In this document: piece after piece, positions 53,252 to 61,829 of the stretch | Layout of the letters: each line of letters opens with the position of its first letter | How positions within the stretch are numbered: the stretch's first letter is position 1 | NCBI GenBank assembly: GCA_964344485.1 | Contig: CAYFNF010000005.1 | Location: forward strand, 23,455 to 87,454 | Length of the DNA stretch: 64,000 bases | Direction of reading: 5' to 3' | Source: an uncultured Gammaproteobacteria bacterium | GTDB lineage: Bacteria > Patescibacteriota > Patescibacteriia > UBA9570 > XYC2-FULL-38-9 | Made by a program: the position numbers and the translations under genes | The notes under the pieces: model-generated | Database searches by the model: none | Told to the model about the DNA's origin: nothing | Seen by the model: only the letters and a program-made list of their open reading frames with translations

Positions 53252-55165
53252 GTGCTCATGCGTAAGAGAAGCCTTGATAAAGATCTACTATTTGCGCTGT
53301 TAACTTTGATAGTAACCGCAGCGTTCTGTGGTGTTGCAACTGTTGAGACGCAAGCAACGAGCACTGAAATTGCCTCAAAAACTATTACTATTGATTCATT
53401 CCGATCCGATTCTCCATCGGGTTTTTCTATACAATCAAATGTCGCACAGGACGTCTTCTCAATCCCGGACGGACAGCAAAGCGCTTCGTTTGAATCAGAT
53501 CTGTATTCACCAGATTTTGAGCTCAACTCCATCGGTGTGACATGGAACGGCGTGATGCAACAGGAGCAAGATGTGGAGATGAAGGTACATATCAACACGC
53601 CTGATAGCACTATGACACGAGTACTACCTCACCTCAGTGATGATATTAAAGAGCCGTTGCCAGCAAACACGCATGCAACAAATCCAATTATCGTAACAGA
53701 TGTCTCTTCTTTTTCACTAGAAGTGAACTTGCATCGGTCTGCAGATGGCTCCAGCCCTACAATCGAGTCTCTAGAGTTAGTATATTTTGATACCACTCAA
53801 GATGTGCAACTTCGACAAACTACAAATCGATCCATAACCGGCGGCTCCTCTTCACAATTGGATATTGTCACACGAACACAATGGGGAGCAGATGAAAGCT
53901 TACGCTTTAATTCAAAAGGTAACGCAATTTGGCCAGCTGAGTATGTTGACCCAGAGATCTTTATTCTGCATCATACTGCGGGCACAGACGGAGGGGATGA
54001 CCCAGCAGCAACAATCCGTTCAATTTACTATTGGCATGCAGTAGTGCTCGGATGGGGAGATATTGGATATAACTATCTCATAGATCCGACAGGAACTATT
54101 TACAAAGGAAGAAAAGGGAAAGATGGAGTGATTGGTGGACATACGTTCAATGAATCTGAGAGCATAGACCTCAACGTGGGTAGTGTAGGTATCGCATTTC
54201 TTGGCTGCTTTGAAGAGGCTGACGGTGCCTGCTATTCGCAGTACGATGTCACTCCCGAGATGAAATCAGCACTCACATCGCTCGTGGGTACGAAAGCTGC
54301 TGAATTCGATTTTGATCCAAAGGAATCTACTACATTTCAAGGTTTCTCCACGAAGCGACTAGCCGGACATAAAGATGTAGATTCGACGTTCTGTCCCGGG
54401 AGCTCACTCTATTCGAATATGGGAAAGCTCCGGAAAAAAGCGCAAAAGAAATATCGAAAGATCACTGCACATCCGTGGGAAGGATCCATGAAGTCGCTAG
54501 AGATATCTGGAGAGCGTTCTGACAGCTTAGAAGTGGGTCAGACGTACTCCGTGACAGTATCGTATGAGAACACTGGGCAGTATACATGGCGACAAGGCAA
54601 GACGCGCCTTAAGGTATATAACGGGACGGGCAAGAAGAGAACACCGTTGCGTCACTCTTCATGGAAAGACGTCTTTGGAAAGATTCCGCTGGATCAAGAG
54701 ACAGTTGCGCCGGGTGAAACCGGAACATTTACTTTTTCTATTTCCAATTCAAACAGTGCTGGAACAAAGAATATTGTCACCAAGCTATTCCATGGAAAGA
54801 GTAAAGTACGCTCGTCTAATGCAACGCATGAATTAACATTCAACCAACCATTTGCTGGATCGCTTGTCGACCATACCATCCCAGTTGCTATGTATCATAA
54901 TGATTCTCTAGAAGTAACTGTTACATTTGAGAATACTGGTGAGACTACCTGGAATGAAGCAGTGAAACTACGCGTGAATGGCAAAAAGAAAGGAGCTGTG
55001 CCACAGCCAATAACGTCTGGTGATACAGTATCGTTTACCTTTGATATCCAAACGCCTAGTGAAGATGCCGAGCAACCGTACGTGCACTACTTTGTTGTTC
55101 AATTAAAAAAACACGGGGGCCGCATTCCCGGGACCCGCCGTGTTTTTGCTATGGAAATTCACTAA
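53252..55165 (+). CDS. N-acetylmuramoyl-L-alanine amidase (Amidase_2/PGRP domain) with large N- and C-terminal extra domains
   Basis: ILHHTAG...GWGDIGYNYLIDPTGTIYKGR...AGHKDVDSTFCPG Zn-amidase motifs in the middle. Signal peptide. C-terminal repeated beta-sandwich-like modules. Confidence 0.75.
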   Translation: MLMRKRSLDKDLLFALLTLIVTAAFCGVATVETQATSTEIASKTITIDSFRSDSPSGFSIQSNVAQDVFSIPDGQQSASFESDLYSPDFELNSIGVTWNGVMQQEQDVEMKVHINTPDSTMTRVLPHLSDDIKEPLPANTHATNPIIVTDVSSFSLEVNLHRSADGSSPTIESLELVYFDTTQDVQLRQTTNRSITGGSSSQLDIVTRTQWGADESLRFNSKGNAIWPAEYVDPEIFILHHTAGTDGGDDPAATIRSIYYWHAVVLGWGDIGYNYLIDPTGTIYKGRKGKDGVIGGHTFNESESIDLNVGSVGIAFLGCFEEADGACYSQYDVTPEMKSALTSLVGTKAAEFDFDPKESTTFQGFSTKRLAGHKDVDSTFCPGSSLYSNMGKLRKKAQKKYRKITAHPWEGSMKSLEISGERSDSLEVGQTYSVTVSYENTGQYTWRQGKTRLKVYNGTGKKRTPLRHSSWKDVFGKIPLDQETVAPGETGTFTFSISNSNSAGTKNIVTKLFHGKSKVRSSNATHELTFNQPFAGSLVDHTIPVAMYHNDSLEVTVTFENTGETTWNEAVKLRVNGKKKGAVPQPITSGDTVSFTFDIQTPSEDAEQPYVHYFVVQLKKHGGRIPGTRRVFAMEIH

Positions 55166-55181: not shown

Positions 55182-56993
55182 TTATTCTGTATCATTTAAA
55201 GACCCTTCGAAATCGTGAAATTCTAGTGGTACATTTGTGTATGCATCTGGGATAGGCAGCTTTCCATCACCATTAGGGTTATACCCATTTGCTGTCTCCT
55301 CTCCGTCTAGATATCCATCGCCATCGGTGTCTTCATTCAGAGGGTCTGTTTCATAAATCTGCTCATAATAGTCATCAAGCTCATCACCATCGGTGTCTTT
55401 TTTGTTTGGATCACTGCCAAATGCATCTTCTTCTAGATCAGTAAGGCCATCGCCATCGGTGTCTTTTTTAAAATCATCAACAAGGTCTTGCGGATCTGGC
55501 GAGATAGTATTGTCGATAGTCTTTGACATATCTGCAGCTATCGATGCAAGCACCTCTTCTAAGCTAGTATACTCAGTTGGGAGGTCGGTGCTCACTGCCT
55601 TATTGTGATCCCACAATTCTACAGTCAACGTGCTAGAGATCACGGTCGCACTGTCGTCCTCTTGTTTCTTAATTAACAGTTTATACGGTTGAAAGTCTTT
55701 TTTACCAACCCAGATCTCTCCGGTGAGAGTGTCGGTTTTCTTGGCAAAGTCAATCATATCAAAGACTTCGAGTGTTGGAGCAATACCAGTACGTTGTACT
55801 TGATCTAAAAATGCAAAGTACTTCTCTTGATCAATAGTGATATAGTAATGGCTGGTATTCGTTCCTTGAACTTTCTCTGAATTTATCTTATCTCCAAGAA
55901 CCACGAACGGATGTTGACGGAACGCTTCTTGAATAATAGTAATATCCTCTTGCTCGATTTCACCTTCTTCATCTTTAGAATCAATACCTGGAAGAGTGCT
56001 TGGTGGTAGTGTTGGGACCTCTAAGTCTTGGTCAAACCGTATCCATTGGCCCTCTAACATACCGAGGTCTGTACCCATGAACTCTGCATTATCAGGAAGT
56101 TCGCCAAGCTTTACGTATATTTCCCCGTTTTGATACTTCACTTCTGCATCTAAGGTAAATGGGTCCCCTTCAGTAAGAAGCTGCACGGTCGCTTGCATGT
56201 ATCCAGCACTTTGATCTGGGTCTAGAATAGTAGTAGCTCCTTGCGCTTGCAGTAGCAACCCATTTACTTCCTGTCCACCGAGTAATTCACCAAAGTCACC
56301 GCCGGATTGTGGTTTAAGCTGCTGTCGAATCTCAACAGAATACGATGCAGACTTCAGTGAAGCAGCGTTCTCAAACATCGAATTCGCAACTCGTTCTGGG
56401 GACTGGTAGTAATGATAGTAGGCATATACTGCTGACCCTGCGATTGCCACAAGTAATGCAATAATCACAACAAGTCCAATGATTTTAGTCTTTGTGCTTA
56501 ACCCTTCTTTAATTACTGGCTGCTGCGTTCCCCCTGATAGTGCTTTGCTTTTCGCTGGTTTCGCACTAGCTGCGCCGGGATCCATAGCAGGCTCTGCCAT
56601 CGGACCGAGCTGACCTGCCGGTGCCTGCGGCTGTTCAGCAGCTCCTGGCTGCGCACCGATATCAAAGATGTCTTCAGGCTCTCCAATGACTGGCTTTTGT
56701 GCGGGCGCTTGTGTCGCGGCAGCTCCTGGCTGCGCACCGTCAGCAGGCATCTGTACACCAAGGTCTTCTCCAAACGATGCTGGAGCTTGTGCATCATCAG
56801 CAGGAAGAGGGGGCAAGCCTGGAGTTGCTGGTGTCCCAGCGTCAGGTCCTGCTGCGATTCCAGCTTCTGCAAATGCCTCTTCGATGTCAGCTGCTTCCCA
56901 GCCGTTGCTCAGCAGTGCTTGGCGGATCTCCTCCGGATTCTTACCTTGCTGCTGTTGATTATTAATAAAGTTCTTTACTTCTAGACTAGTCAT
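55182..56993 (-). CDS. Membrane-anchored protein with Ala/Pro/Gln-rich linker and C-terminal thrombospondin-type-3 Ca-binding repeats
   Basis: Cytoplasmic N-terminal 40 aa, low-complexity APQ region, one TM, extracellular domain, then DTDGDGLTDLEED / DTDGDELDDY / DTDGDGYLDGEE repeats. Confidence 0.65.
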   Translation of the reverse strand: MTSLEVKNFINNQQQQGKNPEEIRQALLSNGWEAADIEEAFAEAGIAAGPDAGTPATPGLPPLPADDAQAPASFGEDLGVQMPADGAQPGAAATQAPAQKPVIGEPEDIFDIGAQPGAAEQPQAPAGQLGPMAEPAMDPGAASAKPAKSKALSGGTQQPVIKEGLSTKTKIIGLVVIIALLVAIAGSAVYAYYHYYQSPERVANSMFENAASLKSASYSVEIRQQLKPQSGGDFGELLGGQEVNGLLLQAQGATTILDPDQSAGYMQATVQLLTEGDPFTLDAEVKYQNGEIYVKLGELPDNAEFMGTDLGMLEGQWIRFDQDLEVPTLPPSTLPGIDSKDEEGEIEQEDITIIQEAFRQHPFVVLGDKINSEKVQGTNTSHYYITIDQEKYFAFLDQVQRTGIAPTLEVFDMIDFAKKTDTLTGEIWVGKKDFQPYKLLIKKQEDDSATVISSTLTVELWDHNKAVSTDLPTEYTSLEEVLASIAADMSKTIDNTISPDPQDLVDDFKKDTDGDGLTDLEEDAFGSDPNKKDTDGDELDDYYEQIYETDPLNEDTDGDGYLDGEETANGYNPNGDGKLPIPDAYTNVPLEFHDFEGSLNDTE

Positions 56994-57116
56994 AGATCTT
57001 ATTTACTATTGTTATATGGTATAGAATACCATGTTTTATATGTAAAAAAAAGCTACATAACCACAGGTGCGTTCATGTCTTTTTATGGCCATAAAAAAAG
57101 CCTCCTCAAGATCACG

Positions 57117-57803
57117 CTACGATGCAGGGGTCTCGGGCAGGAGCTGGGTGAGCGCCTTGATGCCGGCGTGCGTGATGACGATGCCCTCCTTCTGGCTGAT
57201 CAGCCAGTCTTTGCGCGTCCAGTCCGCGAACACTCGGATCACGGTCTCTTCGCGCGAGCAGACCATGGTCGCGTAGTCCCTGCGTGCCAGGCGCAGTGCC
57301 ACGAACTGACCACGAGCATCGTTGGGAACTGCGAACCGTGCGCCCATGTCCAGGAGCAGACGCGCCAGGCGGATCTCGACTGCGTCGCGGATCGTCAGGT
57401 CCGCTTGTCGTCGAGCGTGGTCCACCTTGTTGGCGAGCGACTCCATGATCAGTCGGCAGACCAGCGGGTCCTCTTCCATGAGCTGGCGTAGCGCCTCTCG
57501 TTCGACCTGGAGTGCCTTGATCTGGTCCAGGGCCGTGAGCGTGATCGGACTGGGGTTGCCCGTGACCACTTCGACCTCTCCGACCAGGTCGTGCCGACCG
57601 ATCAGACCCATGGTGAACGTGGTGCCGTCACCGAGCAGGTGTTCGATCTTGGCTGCTCCACAGCACAGGAAGAGTACAGGTGAACTGGGATCGCCGCGAT
57701 GCCAAATGATCCGATCTCGCGGGAAGCGAACGACCGTGGCGAACGGCCCCAGTAGCTGTTGGGTGGTTGTCGGTGGAGTGGATGCAGGTGGCAAGATTGC
57801 CAT
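57117..57803 (-). CDS. Islet I: Crp/Fnr-family transcriptional regulator
   Basis: cNMP-binding beta-barrel (ILFLCCGAAKIEHLLGDGTTFTMGLIGRHDLVGE) and C-terminal HTH (RRDYATMVCSREETVIRVFADWTRKDWL). AAGGAGA RBS 6 nt before the ATG. GC-rich. Confidence 0.75.
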   Translation of the reverse strand: MAILPPASTPPTTTQQLLGPFATVVRFPRDRIIWHRGDPSSPVLFLCCGAAKIEHLLGDGTTFTMGLIGRHDLVGEVEVVTGNPSPITLTALDQIKALQVEREALRQLMEEDPLVCRLIMESLANKVDHARRQADLTIRDAVEIRLARLLLDMGARFAVPNDARGQFVALRLARRDYATMVCSREETVIRVFADWTRKDWLISQKEGIVITHAGIKALTQLLPETPAS

Positions 57804-57832
57804 CGCAAATCTCCTTGCTTAGGTGCAGCCGT

Positions 57833-57861
57833 ACCTTACGGGATTCTATTTTTTTCGTCAA
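57833..57861 (-). promoter_or_regulatory. Possible promoter of the islet I gene (TTGACG, 17 bp, TAAGGT)
   Basis: Minus-strand TTGACG (plus 57856-57861), 17-nt spacer, weak -10 TAAGGT (plus 57833-57838). Confidence 0.3.
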
Positions 57862-57864
57862 ATA

Positions 57865-57890
57865 TAAAACGCCCAAATGGGCGTCTTTGT
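57865..57890. terminator. Bidirectional terminator hairpin acgccc-aaat-gggcgt between tRNA-Ala and the islet I gene
   Basis: tataaaACGCCCaaatGGGCGTctttgt. Confidence 0.5.
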
Positions 57891-57963
57891 GGACCCGAGC
57901 GGAGTCGAACCGCTGACCTCCTGCGTGCAAAGCAGGCGCTCTAGCCAGCTGAGCTACGGGCCC
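57890..57963 (-). tRNA. tRNA-Ala (anticodon UGC)
   Basis: Reverse complement: GGGCCCG TA GCTC AGCTGGCTA GAGC G CCTGC TTTGCAC GCAGG AGGTC AGCGG TTCGACT CCGCT CGGGTCC A. G3:U70 Ala identity pair present. CCA not encoded. Confidence 0.9.
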
Positions 57964-57999
57964 GTGAAAAAACGCTATGACAGCGCTCGAAGTACTATA

Positions 58000-58227
58000 C
58001 TAGTGAACGAAAATAAAGTCAAGAATGCTAGTCATAATGCCGCTCATAATAAACAGCGCACAAAGAATAAACGCAACTCCGATCAGTTTATAAAACGTCC
58101 AGGAGCCACCAGGTCCGAGCTTTTGTTCTGCCCATGCATTACGACCAAACGACTTCATAAACCAGTCGGTTTTGATGATAAGGACCACTCCCGCGGCAAT
58201 AATGAGTAAGCTGATGATATATTTCAT
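58000..58227 (-). CDS. Small membrane protein (75 aa, two TM)
   Basis: Hydrophobic ORF with host-like composition. Confidence 0.45.
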   Translation of the reverse strand: MKYIISLLIIAAGVVLIIKTDWFMKSFGRNAWAEQKLGPGGSWTFYKLIGVAFILCALFIMSGIMTSILDFIFVH

Positions 58228-58265: not shown

Positions 58266-59723
58266 CTAGGAGCACCTATTTAAATATCGCTTCAAGTTAT
58301 GGTGTCCGTGATAATCCAAAATCTGCAACACTTTCTTTGCCTCTTGTTTTTTTGTAATCTTGTCGTATTTCATCTTTCCGTCTTGTTTATAGATAATCAG
58401 TTCGTTCCCTTCAGGCAGCAAACAGTGGTGTACACCTCCAACACCCGAGATCATCTCCTGATACGCTCCGATCCCAAAGACTCCTATATACAATTCTTCT
58501 TTCTCTCCAACATCCGGCAGGTAGATGATATTATCCTTTTCATGTTTATAGTACGTATCATCAGGGTCGCAGGTAATACCACCTAACTTCACTTTGTGAT
58601 ACTCCCGATTCCATCCATTCAACGGCAGAATGAGAAACTGTTGCCCCAGTGCCCATGAATCTGGCAAAAAATTCATCAAACTCCCTTGAATCAAATACCA
58701 AAATGTATTCTTCTCTTTGGCTTTTTTCTTAATTGCAATCTTGAAGCAAAAGAATGAGTGGTCGTTGACCGTGTATCTGCCGTTCTCACCGATGATATGC
58801 GGCGGTGTGATACTGTTCTTCTTTGAAAGTTGGAGTAACGCCTTTACTAATTTGTCTGCGTACGCCCCGTAGTCGAATGAAAAACTCATGTCGTACTGTA
58901 CTGGCAATCCTCCGCCGATATCCAAATACTCAAGCGTCTGGTACTTCTGTTTCAAAGGGCAGTAGTAGTTCTCAAAGATCTTTCGTACTAAGTGAATGTA
59001 GTTTGAGAGGCTTGTTATGGTTCCACCAAAATGAAAGTGGAAGATAGTAAATGTGAGGTTATCTGAATCTTGTATTCTCTGTGCGCACTTCTTCATTCGA
59101 GGGAACGGGATTCCAAAACGGCTTTCTACACTTGTGCCTAAACGATCTCCTTGTTTGAACTCATAGAGTAAATTGTCATCGATGTTCAAGCGCATGCCCA
59201 CTTGAAATTCGACACCCGAATCTAGAAACAGATCGACCTCTTCTTCGCTTTCTAATATCGGAATGATGCGCAACCCTTTTTTGCGCATCTTAATTACTTT
59301 TTCAAAATACCGATCGTATTTGAACCCATTGCAAATAATCGGAGTGTCTTTCGTGATGATGCCTTCTTGATATAAGTACTCAACAATATCCAAATCATAA
59401 CTTGAGGTGGTCTCTAGTGCATCACTATCATCGAGCGCAGTGGTGATAACCTCGCTGTAGTAATTCGCTTTTTGCGCGTATGCGTAGAGATAGTTCCCGG
59501 GGTACTGATGCTTCGTAATGGCAGTCTTGAAATGTGCTTGCAGCTCGCGAATTCTCTGGCTAATCATCTCTGTATACGCAACTTCCAGCGGATCCCCGTA
59601 CTTCTTCACTAAAGAAAGTAAGTTGATATTCTTGTAATACAAGCGATCACCTTTGACTCGCAGGTGATCATTGATTTGATCTGATGACTGGTATTTCTTT
59701 TTGAAAAATGTTTTATATTTCAT
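58266..59723 (-). CDS. speA: Biosynthetic arginine decarboxylase (SpeA-type, fold-III PLP decarboxylase), short form
   Basis: Collinear with E. coli SpeA blocks: YLYAYAQKANYY (YFLVYPIKVNQH), IICNGFKYDRYF (VIVCNGYKDREY), FHFHFGGT (LHFHLGSQ), LDIGGGLPVQYD (FDVGGGLGVDYE). Confidence 0.8.
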   Translation of the reverse strand: MKYKTFFKKKYQSSDQINDHLRVKGDRLYYKNINLLSLVKKYGDPLEVAYTEMISQRIRELQAHFKTAITKHQYPGNYLYAYAQKANYYSEVITTALDDSDALETTSSYDLDIVEYLYQEGIITKDTPIICNGFKYDRYFEKVIKMRKKGLRIIPILESEEEVDLFLDSGVEFQVGMRLNIDDNLLYEFKQGDRLGTSVESRFGIPFPRMKKCAQRIQDSDNLTFTIFHFHFGGTITSLSNYIHLVRKIFENYYCPLKQKYQTLEYLDIGGGLPVQYDMSFSFDYGAYADKLVKALLQLSKKNSITPPHIIGENGRYTVNDHSFFCFKIAIKKKAKEKNTFWYLIQGSLMNFLPDSWALGQQFLILPLNGWNREYHKVKLGGITCDPDDTYYKHEKDNIIYLPDVGEKEELYIGVFGIGAYQEMISGVGGVHHCLLPEGNELIIYKQDGKMKYDKITKKQEAKKVLQILDYHGHHNLKRYLNRCS

Positions 59724-59803
59724 ACACTGCGTTACTTTGCCTATTCATAGTATATACCAAATTCAAACAAAAAACAGGCTCTGGCCTGCTTCTATACGCA
59801 TAC

Positions 59804-60193
59804 TTAATACTGATCTGTCAGACGTGAAAGGTAGAAAAACACCCCAAATGCTACCAGGAATAAGATGCCAGTTATAATGAATATGATAAGAGCTTCAATA
59901 GGAACCTTTCTTGTGACCCCGGGTTTCTTTTTATTCTTATACCATAACAATCCAACAATCACAGCCATAATCGCAGTGAGCAGCCCAAAAAAAGCAGCTA
60001 TCCACGCTGTTGTTGTAGCAACAAGGGTCTCTGGCTGCCGAGTACCGTAATATCCTGTAATCGAAACCTGAGTGTTGACCTGAGCACGTGCTTTCACGGT
60101 AGTGAGGAATATAAATACCGGGGTAGCGATGCGCAATACGATTCTATACAATTGGTCGAAGAATTTACTCTTCATCTTGTTCTCTTTGCTCAA
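59804..60193 (-). CDS. Membrane protein (129 aa, 3 TM), hypothetical
   Basis: Downstream of, and overlapping (29 nt), the radical-SAM gene. Confidence 0.5.
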   Translation of the reverse strand: MSKENKMKSKFFDQLYRIVLRIATPVFIFLTTVKARAQVNTQVSITGYYGTRQPETLVATTTAWIAAFFGLLTAIMAVIVGLLWYKNKKKPGVTRKVPIEALIIFIITGILFLVAFGVFFYLSRLTDQY

Positions 60194-61271
60194 TTAAATC
60201 CAGGTTACAGTAGCGTAGTTCTTTTTTATCGTAATCCCATAAATGATAACTATTTCCTTCACAGAAGTTCCACCACTCACAGTCTGTACATGCACCGCAT
60301 TTCTTCCATTCCCGGTCTCGGAATTGCTTAAACTCATTATTCCATATATCGCTAAATCTGTCATCTCTGACGTTTCCTTGACGTGTATGCTCGCGCGGTA
60401 GAATAGGACATGCACCGATATCTCCGTTATATAAAATAGAACCAATGCTAACGCCGGCCCAGCAGAAGTACATTTCATCGCGTACCTCGCCTTCATACTC
60501 AGTACCTAAAAAACCCTCATCGCAAAAGGAGATCTCTTTGATTGGATCATTATCCTGCTTCCTTTTCTCTACGATGTAGTCCAGAAGCTTGCGATACTGC
60601 TCTTTTGAAAGCAGCAGCTGATCGTTATCTTTTGCACGACCAGTCGCGGTAATAGTAAATAGACGCCACGCGTCCAGTTTCAGCTCTCTGCAAAACTCAT
60701 ATATTTCATCAAGTTGCTCGAAATTCTTCTGATTCACGCATGTAATGACCTCGATTGTATTGAAGTCGCCAGACTCAGTAAGCAACTTGATGCCACGTAC
60801 CGCTCGTTCGAATACATCTTTCTGATTGCGCAGCCAGTTATGTGTCTGCTCTAAACCGTCTAAGCTGATAGAGATAGATTCACAATTTGCTTGTTTCAGT
60901 TTTTCAACTATCTCTGGAGTGATGAGTGTTCCATTAGAGACCATGCCCCAGCGGAACCCAAGCTCGCTCACGAATGTCATGACCTCAAACAGATCGCTCC
61001 GTGTGAGTGGCTCACCGCCAGTAACGTTTATGCAAATAGATGAAGCGTCAAAATCTTCGGCCATGGTCTTGAATGCGTGCTTTATCTCTTCAGTAGTAAG
61101 CTCGTCGCTTCTATTCTCCTCAGGCCCGCAGGAGCTGCCACAGTGCTGACAAAACAAGTTGCACTTGAGCGTGCACTCCCAAAAAAAATAGACCAGAGGG
61201 TGTTCTTTCTTTTTCTTTTCACAAAACTTCTGCCATAGTAGAAGTTTTCCAGTTTTTACATACTTACGCAT
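60165..61271 (-). CDS. Radical SAM enzyme with C-terminal SPASM/twitch Cys cluster (peptide or cofactor maturase type)
   Basis: CNLFCQHC (Cx3Cx2C) at the N-terminus. C-terminal CGACTDCEWWNFCEGN plus further Cys (Cx2Cx2Cx5C). Confidence 0.8.
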   Translation of the reverse strand: MRKYVKTGKLLLWQKFCEKKKKEHPLVYFFWECTLKCNLFCQHCGSSCGPEENRSDELTTEEIKHAFKTMAEDFDASSICINVTGGEPLTRSDLFEVMTFVSELGFRWGMVSNGTLITPEIVEKLKQANCESISISLDGLEQTHNWLRNQKDVFERAVRGIKLLTESGDFNTIEVITCVNQKNFEQLDEIYEFCRELKLDAWRLFTITATGRAKDNDQLLLSKEQYRKLLDYIVEKRKQDNDPIKEISFCDEGFLGTEYEGEVRDEMYFCWAGVSIGSILYNGDIGACPILPREHTRQGNVRDDRFSDIWNNEFKQFRDREWKKCGACTDCEWWNFCEGNSYHLWDYDKKELRYCNLDLIEQREQDEE

Positions 61272-61284
61272 CCGTCCGTGGATA

Positions 61285-61608
61285 CTATTTTTGCATGGTC
61301 GGCAGGGCGTCCGATGATATCACTTGCATTCCCCAATGCGCATAGGCATATACTGCTCCGCAGAATAGCAACAGAATAACCAAAACAATGGCCACAATCA
61401 ATTTTGCTGTCTTCTTTAGTAATTTAATTGCGAGGATAATGCCGATGACAACTGCAACTGCAATAATCGCGCTCACCCACTTTACTGCTAATGCAAATGT
61501 CTCCTCGGGGTATTGTGTTTGTGCAGCAACCGCCAAAGGAAGTAATGATAATACAAAAAACGAACTATACAGTGATAGTTGAATTTTTTTCATACGATTG
61601 TTTGTCAT
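61285..61608 (-). CDS. Small membrane protein (107 aa), hypothetical; immediately upstream of the rSAM gene
   Basis: N-terminal signal-like segment plus two more TM. 13-nt gap to the rSAM start. Confidence 0.5.
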   Translation of the reverse strand: MTNNRMKKIQLSLYSSFFVLSLLPLAVAAQTQYPEETFALAVKWVSAIIAVAVVIGIILAIKLLKKTAKLIVAIVLVILLLFCGAVYAYAHWGMQVISSDALPTMQK

Positions 61609-61621
61609 ATGGATTTGTTAG

Positions 61622-61695
61622 TGTGGGCGCTATAGGACTCGAACCTATGACCCCTTCGGTGTAAACGAAGTGCTCTAGCCAGCTGAGCTAAGCGC
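61622..61695 (-). tRNA. tRNA-Val (anticodon UAC)
   Basis: Reverse complement: GGGCGCT TA GCTC AGCTGGCTA GAGC A CTTCG TTTACAC CGAAG GGGTC ATAGG TTCGAGT CCTAT AGCGCCC A. Confidence 0.9.
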
Positions 61696-61718
61696 CCATG
61701 AATGTTATAAGGTGCGAA

Positions 61719-61801
61719 TGTGCCGAAGGGGGGACTCGAACCCCCACGCTCATAAGAGCCATGGCCCTCAACCATGCGTGTATACCAATTCCACCACCTC
61801 G
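61719..61801 (-). tRNA. tRNA-Leu (anticodon GAG), long variable arm
   Basis: Reverse complement: GCCGAGG TGGTGGAATTGGTATACACG CATGG TTGAGGG CCATG GCTCTTATGAGCGT GGGGG TTCGAGT CCCCC TTCGGC A. Confidence 0.85.
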
Positions 61802-61829
61802 GCGTAGGGGGGCGTTGCCCCAAAACAGA

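What the first reader, a model, noticed from the sequence alone, without database searches (positions are those of the whole stretch)
59804..61608. Radical SAM/SPASM enzyme sandwiched between two small membrane proteins
A Cx3Cx2C radical SAM core with a C-terminal multi-Cys SPASM/twitch domain usually modifies a peptide or protein substrate (RiPP maturases, anSME, PqqE, MftC). The flanking 107-aa and 129-aa ORFs overlap or nearly abut it. No Cys-rich short precursor is evident, so the substrate is unknown. It could be a new maturation cassette or a membrane-protein modifying system.
Basis: partly seen in the sequence, partly recalled or inferred. Interest (0 to 1): 0.55.

Follow-up and report, generated by a model that had tools for sequence, protein, structure and literature searches.

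The report
Radical SAM enzyme with Tyr-Gly partner
A radical SAM enzyme gene sits beside the small exported membrane protein it most likely modifies at a conserved Tyr-Gly site; the same pairing occurs from candidate-phyla bacteria to gut Bacteroidales and archaea, and probably puts a reactive beta-amino-acid "ketoamide" into a cell-surface protein.

Summary
Three co-oriented minus-strand genes lie at 59804-61608: ORF107, a 368-aa radical SAM/SPASM enzyme, and ORF129 (probably 123 aa from the ATG at 60175). The enzyme is not housekeeping. Its best family is TIGR04133, Haft's "rSAM/lipoprotein system" of unknown function (357 bits, under the 425 cutoff), about twice the score of AhbD, NirJ or MftC.

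Across 135 dereplicated homologous loci, the only recurrent neighbour is a small signal-peptide, lipobox or membrane-anchored protein. These partners are otherwise unrelated but share an x-Tyr-Gly-[V/P/T]-Pro motif about 12 residues after the signal sequence. It was found in 82 of 106 loci, against 15 of 2960 control ORFs.

ORF129 is a true member of the candidate-phyla partner family (profile E 1e-11). Its Y42-Y43-G44 falls in the conserved xYG column. ORF107 has the same architecture but no Tyr-Gly and no significant homology.

XYG, in very similar context (PLYGLP, ALYGLPPE), is the known target of radical SAM "spliceases" such as PlpX. [quoted passage not shown] My best explanation is a binary splicease-like cassette that acts on a membrane protein before Sec export. 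The substrate pairing is well supported; the chemistry is inferred. I rate it a new variant of a known kind.

The parts
60165..61271 (-). Radical SAM/SPASM enzyme, 368 aa, TIGR04133-like. It is cytoplasmic and has no RRE domain.
   Evidence: PF04055 and PF13186 hits. TIGR04133 scores 357 bits, E 8.9e-107, over the full length but below the 425 cutoff. The Cx3Cx2C motif and six invariant SPASM cysteines are present. The AF2 model has pLDDT 94.3, and the nearest solved folds are SkfB, SuiB and anSME.
59804..60175 (-). Partner and probable substrate: a 123-aa small membrane protein (129 aa if read from the TTG at 60193). Its layout is signal-like N-terminus, AxA-Q, a short ectodomain with Y42-Y43-G44, TM, a Lys-rich loop, then TM.
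   Evidence: A profile built from 6 partners of the closest rSAM homologues scores it 39-40 bits, E 1e-11, the best of 419 window ORFs. Block-preserving shuffles reach at most 13.5 bits. Gene callers use the ATG start. The 11-nt overlap with the rSAM stop codon suggests translational coupling.
60044..60052 (-). Codons for Tyr42-Tyr43-Gly44, the predicted x-Tyr-Gly modification site of the partner.
   Evidence: The site aligns with the xYG column of the partner family: ITGYYGTRQPETLV against NPLYGIRTPEEML, VPMYGVFRSTPEE and TPAYGIQPPKPKE. The codons were read directly from the sequence.
60080..60175 (-). N-terminal 32 residues of the partner: a basic n-region, a hydrophobic core and A-R-A|Q. 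It is a Sec-type signal sequence and possibly also serves as the leader the enzyme recognises.
   Evidence: The sequence is. Across 112 partners the first YG lies a median of 12 residues after this segment. The recognition role is inferred.
61285..61608 (-). ORF107 (102 aa from the second Met). It has the same signal-TM-KK-TM architecture but reads 'TQYPEE' where the partners have xYG. Its status as part of the system is uncertain.
   Evidence: It scores only 9.8 bits, E 0.023, on the partner profile, which is within the shuffle range. Only a self-hit was found among 5.8 billion proteins. NCBI called it as a gene (P0138).
59770..59793 (-). Terminator-like hairpin followed by a T-run, immediately after the partner's stop codon. 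It is the probable 3' end of the cassette.
   Evidence: Consensus scan, 10-pair stem. The same scan found 6 such sites in the region against 3.5 expected, so this is weak evidence on its own.

Best explanation
This is a binary enzyme-substrate maturation cassette.

**Proposed sequence of events**
1. The cytoplasmic TIGR04133-like radical SAM/SPASM enzyme (60165-61271) binds the newly made, still unexported product of the translationally coupled downstream gene (59804-60175).
2. It probably uses the signal sequence as a leader.
3. It modifies the Tyr-Gly site (Y42-Y43-G44) about 16 residues after the signal sequence.
4. The most likely chemistry is that of the radical SAM spliceases (PlpX type). 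5'-deoxyadenosyl-radical chemistry excises a tyramine equivalent (C8H9NO, -135.07 Da) from Tyr43 and rejoins the backbone. [quoted passage not shown]
5. The protein is then exported and inserted by Sec. After signal-peptide cleavage, the short N-terminal ectopeptide carrying the electrophilic ketoamide would be tethered to the outer face of the membrane by the following TM segment(s).

**Shown**
- The enzyme class.
- The conserved pairing with exported x-Tyr-Gly proteins.
- Homology of ORF129 to those partners, with the site aligned.
- The absence of any other conserved gene.

**Inferred**
- That the partner is the substrate.
- That modification comes before export.
- The splicing chemistry.
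- Any function of the product, for example a surface-tethered protease-inhibitor warhead or a covalent handle.
For: **1. Enzyme.** It has the rSAM and SPASM domains. TIGR04133 is the best family by about two-fold, and the same holds for 10 homologues from bacteria and archaea. The confident model resembles peptide- and protein-modifying SPASM enzymes, including anSME, which also matures secreted proteins before export (the anSME biology is established knowledge).

**2. Pairing.**
- Among 135 dereplicated loci, 82 of 106 with both flanks have an adjacent same-strand ORF with a signal-like N-terminus plus YG..P. The control rate is 15 of 2960.
- Motif density is 3.49 against 0.30 per 1000 residues.
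- An unbiased k-mer test puts YG at the top among dipeptides (just behind WY), and YGP, MYG, CYG and YGV among the leading tripeptides.
- The partners fall into unrelated families: the TIGR04134 lipoprotein, short KYGPP-repeat lipoproteins, and SP-TM proteins. They share only the motif.
- No other neighbour family recurs.
- The pairing also occurs in the archaeon Methanocella.

**3. Window partner.** ORF129 matches the profile of the closest clade's partners at E 1e-11 with YYG in the xYG column. It overlaps the rSAM stop codon.

**4. Chemistry.**
- XYG is the defining target of spliceases (PMC11414181, PMC11626197, PMC9811515).
- The natural splice tag PIRPLYGLPI (PMC10533398) and an annotated Nostoc Nif11 core 'SIALYGLPPELF' next to a TIGR04103 enzyme closely resemble QPLYGVP, PLYGIRTPEE and ILYGPPQP here.
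- That Nostoc PlpX-family enzyme aligns with the window enzyme over the full length (28% identity, 138 bits, E 2e-41). TIGR04103 is among the top ten family hits.
- Binary spliceases without a PlpY-type protein are known (PMC11414181).

**5. Position.** The first YG lies a median of 12 residues after the signal hydrophobic core. This fits use of the signal sequence as a leader.
Against: - No experiment has been done on any TIGR04133-like enzyme that I could find (one search found no paper).
- The enzyme is no closer to PlpX-type spliceases (133 bits) than to AhbD (180), NirJ2 (168) or MftC (154). The chemistry therefore rests on the substrate motif alone.
- The window site is atypical. X is Tyr, and Pro comes four residues after Gly rather than two. 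It is also a single copy.
- One close relative has Tyr-Ala instead of Tyr-Gly (L006 'PLYAP').
- About a quarter of the loci showed no partner by my criteria.
- Modification before Sec export is assumed, not shown.
Confidence: 0.55

Rival explanations
1. Same enzyme-substrate pair, different chemistry. The rSAM recognises x-Tyr-Gly in the exported partner but installs something other than a tyramine excision. Candidates are a Tyr-to-i+2 three-residue cyclophane (triceptide-like), another Tyr crosslink, epimerisation, C-beta hydroxylation, or backbone cleavage.
For: - All the pairing evidence applies.
- The enzyme is not specifically closer to PlpX than to MftC, another Tyr-directed enzyme, or to AhbD/NirJ.
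- Y-G-[V/P/T] could in principle be read as an aromatic-X-X cyclophane motif (my own knowledge of triceptides).
Against: - Among the described rSAM/SPASM target motifs I know of, x-Tyr-Gly with an invariant Gly is specific to spliceases (PMC11414181, PMC9811515).
- The flanking context matches real splice sites (PMC10533398).
- The residue after Gly is variable (V47, P47, T28, I, M, A, S of 188), unlike the fixed third residue typical of cyclophane motifs.
- No triceptide-type family appears among the 25 best NCBIfam hits listed, of 74 in all.
Confidence: 0.27
2. The small membrane proteins are accessory components (membrane anchor, immunity or transport), and the true substrate is encoded elsewhere or is too small to have been noticed.
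For: - ORF107 and ORF129 are TM-rich, like many RiPP immunity or transport proteins.
- rSAM substrates are often tiny ORFs that gene callers miss.
- ORF107 lacks the motif.
Against: - No other small ORF with a conserved motif lies near the gene.
- In most phyla the partner has no TM segment after the motif. It is a soluble lipoprotein or a short repeat peptide, so the only conserved property is the x-Tyr-Gly motif placed just after a signal sequence.
- No other gene family recurs.
Confidence: 0.1
3. The enzyme is a cofactor or small-molecule enzyme of the AhbD/NirJ type (tetrapyrrole side-chain chemistry), or another metabolic rSAM that only happens to lie among membrane-protein genes. It might instead work with the adjacent SpeA-like decarboxylase.
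For: - AhbD and NirJ2 are the second and third best family hits (180 and 168 bits).
- A PLP decarboxylase gene follows 80 nt downstream.
Against: - These scores are far below the family cutoffs of 500.
- No heme or siroheme genes are nearby.
- The decarboxylase is separated by a terminator-like hairpin and is absent from the other loci.
- Conserved synteny with x-Tyr-Gly proteins across phyla is unexplained under this view.
Confidence: 0.05

Closest known systems
TIGR04133 / TIGR04134 'rSAM/lipoprotein system' (NCBIfam hypothetical equivalogs; Bacteroidales, Treponema)
   Same: - TIGR04133 is by far the best family for the enzyme: full-length alignment, 357 bits.
- The enzyme gene lies adjacent to a small exported protein with x-Tyr-Gly just after the signal sequence.
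- The Bacteroidales partner 'PCEYGTP...' scores 121.6 bits on TIGR04134.
   Different: - The enzyme scores below the 425-bit cutoff. So did every non-Bacteroides homologue I tested.
- The window partner has no lipobox Cys and no TIGR04134 domain. It is a signal-TM-TM membrane protein that NCBIfam and Pfam do not describe.
- The function of this system is itself unknown.
Radical SAM spliceases / spliceotides (PlpX, PcpX, RhaX, RcsX, RasX; TIGR04103 = IPR026482)
   Same: - rSAM plus SPASM architecture.
- The target motif is X-Tyr-Gly in very similar context: PLYGLP, ALYGLPPE (PMC10533398).
- Binary enzyme-plus-substrate systems exist (PMC11414181).
- 28% identity over the full length to a Nostoc TIGR04103 enzyme.
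   Different: - Only 133 bits against a 725 cutoff on TIGR04103.
- The substrate carries a Sec or lipoprotein signal sequence rather than a Nif11/NHLP leader.
- There is no PlpY, and no peptidase or exporter.
- The product would stay membrane-anchored rather than being released.
- The chemistry is untested here. I could not read Scott et al. 2022 (Chem), which mined YG-rich neighbours of rSAM-SPASM proteins (PMC10849128), to see whether this clade was already included.
Anaerobic sulfatase-maturating enzyme (anSME)
   Same: - rSAM plus SPASM of about 370 aa without an RRE domain.
- The structural match spans the full length (TM about 0.70).
- It modifies a short motif in a signal-peptide-bearing protein in the cytoplasm before Sec export (established knowledge).
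   Different: - Sequence identity in the structural alignments is only 17-18%.
- No anSME family appears among the 25 best NCBIfam hits listed.
- There is no C/S-x-P-x-R motif and no sulfatase.
- The target residue is Tyr-Gly.
AhbD / NirJ (heme b and heme d1 radical SAM enzymes) and MftC (mycofactocin maturase)
   Same: - They are the next-best sequence families, at 180, 168 and 154 bits.
- MftC also acts on a Tyr of a ribosomal peptide.
   Different: - All are far below their cutoffs.
- There are no tetrapyrrole genes and no MftA/MftB genes.
- The Tyr here is internal and followed by Gly, not a C-terminal Val-Tyr.

Membership tests
Radical SAM superfamily | Cx3Cx2C cluster motif and a PF04055 hit above the gathering score | tested here: met
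   C37, C41 and C44 are present. PF04055 scores 87.5 bits against a cutoff of 29.5. The three cysteines are invariant in 66 homologues.
SPASM-domain rSAM enzymes | C-terminal auxiliary Fe-S domain (PF13186) with the 7-Cys motif | tested here: met
   PF13186 scores 41.9 bits against a cutoff of 21.5. Six cysteines are invariant: C270, G283-x4-C288, C328-x2-C331-x5-C337 and C355. The canonical Cys at +4 after C337 is Ser. H343 is invariant and might substitute for it, which is inference.
TIGR04133 (rSAM of the rSAM/lipoprotein system) | Score at or above the curated cutoff of 425 bits | tested here: not met
   357 bits, E 8.9e-107, profile positions 7-347 of 350. Ten homologues score 299-379 bits. 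The enzyme is a divergent relative, not a strict member.
TIGR04133 (rSAM of the rSAM/lipoprotein system) | Adjacent TIGR04134 'radical SAM-associated putative lipoprotein' | tested here: not met
   ORF129 and ORF107 give no TIGR04134 hit at E <= 0.01 and contain no lipobox Cys. A Bacteroidales partner from L041 does hit, at 121.6 bits.
Splicease / spliceotide system | Enzyme belongs to the PlpX family (TIGR04103 / IPR026482) | tested here: not met
   132.7 bits against a cutoff of 725. 28% identity to a Nostoc member. Later-described splicease types lie outside this model according to PMC11414181, so failing this test does not exclude the activity.
Splicease / spliceotide system | X-Tyr-Gly motif in a substrate encoded next to the enzyme | tested here: met
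   Y42-Y43-G44 in ORF129 aligns with the conserved xYG column of the partner family. The motif is enriched about 12-fold in neighbours across 135 loci.
Splicease / spliceotide system | [quoted passage not shown] | not testable with these tools
   This needs co-expression and LC-MS/MS. The reaction is defined in PMC11626197 and PMC10533398.
Splicease / spliceotide system | Small PlpY-type activator protein (type I systems only) | tested here: not met
   No such ORF is present, and no other conserved neighbour family exists. Binary systems without a Y protein are documented (PMC11414181).
AhbD heme b synthase / NirJ | Score above the equivalog cutoff (500) and a tetrapyrrole gene context | tested here: not met
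   180 and 168 bits. No heme or siroheme genes lie within 10 kb.
anSME | Family-level sequence match and a sulfatase substrate with C/S-x-P-x-R | tested here: not met
   No anSME family appears among the 25 best NCBIfam hits listed, of 74 in all. There is only fold-level similarity at 17-18% identity. No sulfatase gene lies nearby.

The most novel reading that the evidence does not exclude
Sec signal sequences double as RiPP-style leaders. A cytoplasmic radical SAM splicease edits the backbone of pre-proteins just behind their signal peptide. Candidate-phyla bacteria, archaea and gut Bacteroidales would then display membrane- or lipid-tethered proteins carrying an electrophilic alpha-keto-beta-amino acid at the cell surface. 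This would be a genetically encoded, surface-anchored warhead, for example for covalent protease inhibition or attachment to a host cell, rather than a diffusible natural product.
Probability: 0.35. Interest if true: 0.75.

Novelty: new variant of a known kind. Interest (0 to 1): 0.55.

Why it matters
If this is right, it gives a concrete and testable function to a widespread family. That family has been annotated only as a "TIGR04133 family radical SAM/SPASM protein" plus a "putative lipoprotein" (hundreds of loci, and 2378 homologues).

It would also extend backbone tyramine splicing from released peptides to exported membrane and lipoproteins. The organisms concerned include Patescibacteria, which live attached to host cells, and abundant gut Bacteroidales.

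A surface-tethered ketoamide would be a new kind of cell-envelope chemistry. The very short recognition context, a signal sequence followed by xYGxP, could also be useful for protein engineering.

Tried and rejected
- **Housekeeping assignment** (anSME, MoaA, QueE, AhbD, NirJ, PqqE, MftC): rejected. All score far below their cutoffs.
- **Cys-rich or other hidden precursor ORFs** in and around 59724-59803 and 61272-61284: none found.
- **SpeA-like decarboxylase as part of the cassette**: rejected. It is not conserved next to the rSAM elsewhere and is separated by a terminator-like hairpin.
- **Sequence searches with ORF129 and ORF107**: the word-indexed search of 5.8 billion proteins, and for ORF129 also full phmmer against 1.8 billion, returned only self-hits. 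The partner family is visible only through synteny plus a small profile.
- **ORF107 as a second substrate**: not supported. It scores 9.8 bits, within the shuffle range, and has no Tyr-Gly.
- **First metagenome scan** with the single protein: found nothing. The scan with an alignment worked.
- **Literature**: nothing found on TIGR04133 or on spliceases combined with lipoproteins. Scott et al. 2022 (Chem) is not held, and no supplements with splicease sequences are held.
- **Promoter scan**: uninformative, 9 found against 9.1 expected.
Full report
**1. Observation**

The three minus-strand ORFs exist as described: ORF107 at 61285-61608, a 368-aa protein at 60165-61271, and ORF129 at 59804-60193.

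The 368-aa protein has C37-x3-C41-x2-C44. It hits Pfam Radical_SAM (E 1.4e-24) and SPASM (E 1.3e-10).

Thirteen nucleotides separate ORF107 from the rSAM gene. ORF129 overlaps the rSAM 3' end. The ATG at 60175 gives 123 aa and an 11-nt overlap, is preceded by AAAGAG, and is the start chosen by gene callers. It also fits the N-termini of the homologues better than the TTG does.

Both small ORFs have a basic N-terminus, a hydrophobic core ending in A-x-A|Q, a short polar stretch, a TM segment, a Lys-rich loop and a second TM segment.

tRNA-Leu and tRNA-Val lie immediately upstream. A terminator-like hairpin (59793-59770) follows ORF129.

**2. The enzyme**

NCBIfam places it nearest TIGR04133, the "rSAM_w_lipo" hypothetical equivalog: 357 bits, E 8.9e-107, full length, but below the 425 cutoff. 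Next come AhbD (180), NirJ2 (168), MftC (154) and, in tenth place, TIGR04103 (133).

Ten homologues from Patescibacteria, Peregrinibacteria, Bacteroidota, Methanocella and unnamed metagenome sequences behave the same way, scoring 299-379 bits on TIGR04133. The window enzyme therefore belongs to a broad TIGR04133-like clade, of which the curated model captures only the Bacteroides core.

The database search found 2378 homologues. The nearest are 52-62% identical and come from metagenomes and Patescibacteria MAGs.

An AlphaFold2 model built on 66 sequences is confident (pLDDT 94.3). Its nearest solved folds are SkfB, SuiB and anSME (TM about 0.70 over the full length) and PqqE. It is thus a peptide/protein-type SPASM enzyme without an RRE domain.

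Six SPASM cysteines and H343 are invariant.

**3. The neighbours**

I collected 168 loci and dereplicated them to 135.

Results of the scan:
- The adjacent same-strand ORF is, in 82 of the 106 loci with both flanks available, a small protein with a signal-like N-terminus and a Tyr-Gly followed by Pro within three residues. Only 15 of 2960 control ORFs elsewhere in the same loci meet these criteria.
- Motif density is 3.49 against 0.30 per 1000 residues.
- A test with no motif assumption ranks YG at the top among dipeptides, just behind WY (141 of 223 adjacent ORFs against 81 of 749 distant ones). GPP, YGP, MYG, CYG and YGV are the leading tripeptides.
- The site consensus is P-Q-[A/T/P]-[K/E/L/M]-Y-G-[V/P/T]-P-P.
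- The first site lies a median of 12 residues after the signal hydrophobic core.

The partners are otherwise unrelated:
- about 150-aa Bacteroidales lipoproteins that are TIGR04134 (121.6 bits);
- short lipoproteins with KYGPP repeats;
- Myxococcota proteins with up to nine QVLYGPMP repeats;
- signal-xYG-TM proteins in Patescibacteria, Ktedonobacter and the archaeon Methanocella.

No other gene family recurs next to the enzyme. The system is binary.

**4. The window partner**

The partners of the closest enzymes (57-62% identity; L001, L004, L088, L091, L092) are homologous to one another and to ORF129. All share the signal with AKAQ, then xYG[V/I]..P(E)E.L, then a TM segment ending GLIWY(R/K)K(R/K), and most (all but L004) a second TM.

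A profile of six such partners (the five above plus L006's) scores ORF129 at E 1e-11, best of 419 window ORFs. The score is 39.4 bits, against at most 13.5 bits for 1000 shuffles that preserve the hydrophobicity profile.

Y42-Y43-G44 (60052-60044) falls in the xYG column.

ORF107 scores 9.8 bits, which is within the null range. Where the others have xYG it reads 'QYPEE'. It has no database relatives. It may be a decayed duplicate, since tandem partner genes occur elsewhere (L025, L097), or it may be an unrelated small membrane protein.

**5. Mechanism**

X-Tyr-Gly is the defining target of the radical SAM spliceases: PlpX, PcpX, RhaX, RcsX and RasX. [quoted passage not shown]

Real splice sites look like the sites found here:
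- the PlpA tag PIRPLYGLPI (PMC10533398);
- an annotated Nostoc Nif11 precursor ending GG-RGSIALYGLPPELF, encoded next to a TIGR04103 enzyme and a 71-aa PlpY-like ORF.

That Nostoc enzyme aligns with the window enzyme over its full length: 28% identity, 138 bits, E 2e-41.

Binary spliceases without a Y protein exist. [quoted passage not shown]

I therefore propose a splicease-like reaction on the pre-protein in the cytoplasm, with the signal sequence acting as leader, followed by Sec export. The precedent is anSME, which matures secreted sulfatases before export (established knowledge).

The weak point is that the enzyme is no closer to PlpX than to AhbD, NirJ or MftC. The chemistry therefore rests on the motif. 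My confidence is about 0.85 that ORF129's Tyr-Gly site is the substrate, and about 0.55 that the reaction is tyramine splicing.

**6. Known or new**

The TIGR04133/TIGR04134 pairing has been in TIGRFAMs/NCBIfam for years as a system of unknown function. I found no paper on it.

Scott et al. 2022 (Chem) mined YG-rich neighbours of all rSAM-SPASM proteins and reported spliceases in 189 genera, with 27 confirmed pairs and 939 predicted (PMC10849128, PMC10533398). That paper is not held. I cannot say whether this clade was among them, and no held paper links spliceases with lipoproteins.

The window's version has an enzyme below the family cutoff and a partner that is a signal-TM-TM membrane protein absent from Pfam and NCBIfam. 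The partner is an orphan by single-sequence search. I rate this a new variant of a known kind.

**7. Verdict**

- Interest is 0.55. The finding is a sound and testable functional hypothesis for a widespread uncharacterised system, with an unusual export-coupled twist. However, the chemistry is probably of a known kind and may already have been anticipated in the splicease literature.

Noticed in passing
window 58266-59723 (-) and 58000-58227 (-): A SpeA-like PLP decarboxylase of only 485 aa. It scores 211 bits on PRK05354 (cutoff 369), whereas biosynthetic SpeA is about 630 aa. A 75-aa two-TM ORF follows it. Both travel with the cassette on a second ENA contig (L168), but they are not next to the rSAM in any other locus.
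   Followed up: partly
window 57117-57803 (-), within 56001-58000: A Crp/Fnr-family regulator (cNMP_binding plus HTH_Crp_2) sits in a block of higher G+C: 0.539 against about 0.45 for the window. This could mark foreign DNA.
   Followed up: no
window 61623-61803 (-); L001 5577-5818; L091 1585-1659: tRNA genes lie directly upstream of the rSAM cassette, on the same strand, in the window (Leu-GAG, Val-TAC) and in two of the closest relatives (Pro and Gly; Gly). This could reflect co-transcription or an insertion hotspot.
   Followed up: partly
L169 3001-4493 (Methanocella sp. chromosome CP187259.1): An archaeon carries the same pair. The rSAM is 49% identical. Its partner is a 121-aa protein with an N-terminal TM, 'GGKYGPPPDPDMPVVKYGAPVDP', then a C-terminal TM and a basic tail.
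   Followed up: partly
L009 6631-6948 (Saccharibacteria MAG): The partner variant here has its Tyr-Gly site followed by a Cys-rich tail, 'IPIYGPPPAPDPGCICACYCSCACSCAPP'. It may carry a second modification or bind metal.
   Followed up: no
L006 5556-5939: An ORF upstream of a 54%-identical rSAM was not called by the gene callers. It has the full partner architecture but reads Tyr-Ala ('PVPLYAPSPP') instead of Tyr-Gly. This is either a natural exception to the motif or an inactive copy.
   Followed up: no
Bacteroidales loci, e.g. L042 4578-4955, L019 4543-4959, L070 4703-4954: In many lipoprotein partners the X of xYG is the lipobox cysteine itself or the residue one or two positions after it ('ACYG', 'GCMYG'). 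Any modification would then sit at the very N-terminus of the mature, lipidated protein.
   Followed up: partly
window 55182-56993 (-) and 53252-55165 (+): Two large secreted proteins lie nearby. One is 603 aa with bacterial TSP3 repeats and a Pro/Ala-rich N-terminal region. The other is 637 aa with an Amidase_2 domain and CARDB/Ig-like repeats. This is a cell-surface gene neighbourhood typical of Patescibacteria.
   Followed up: no
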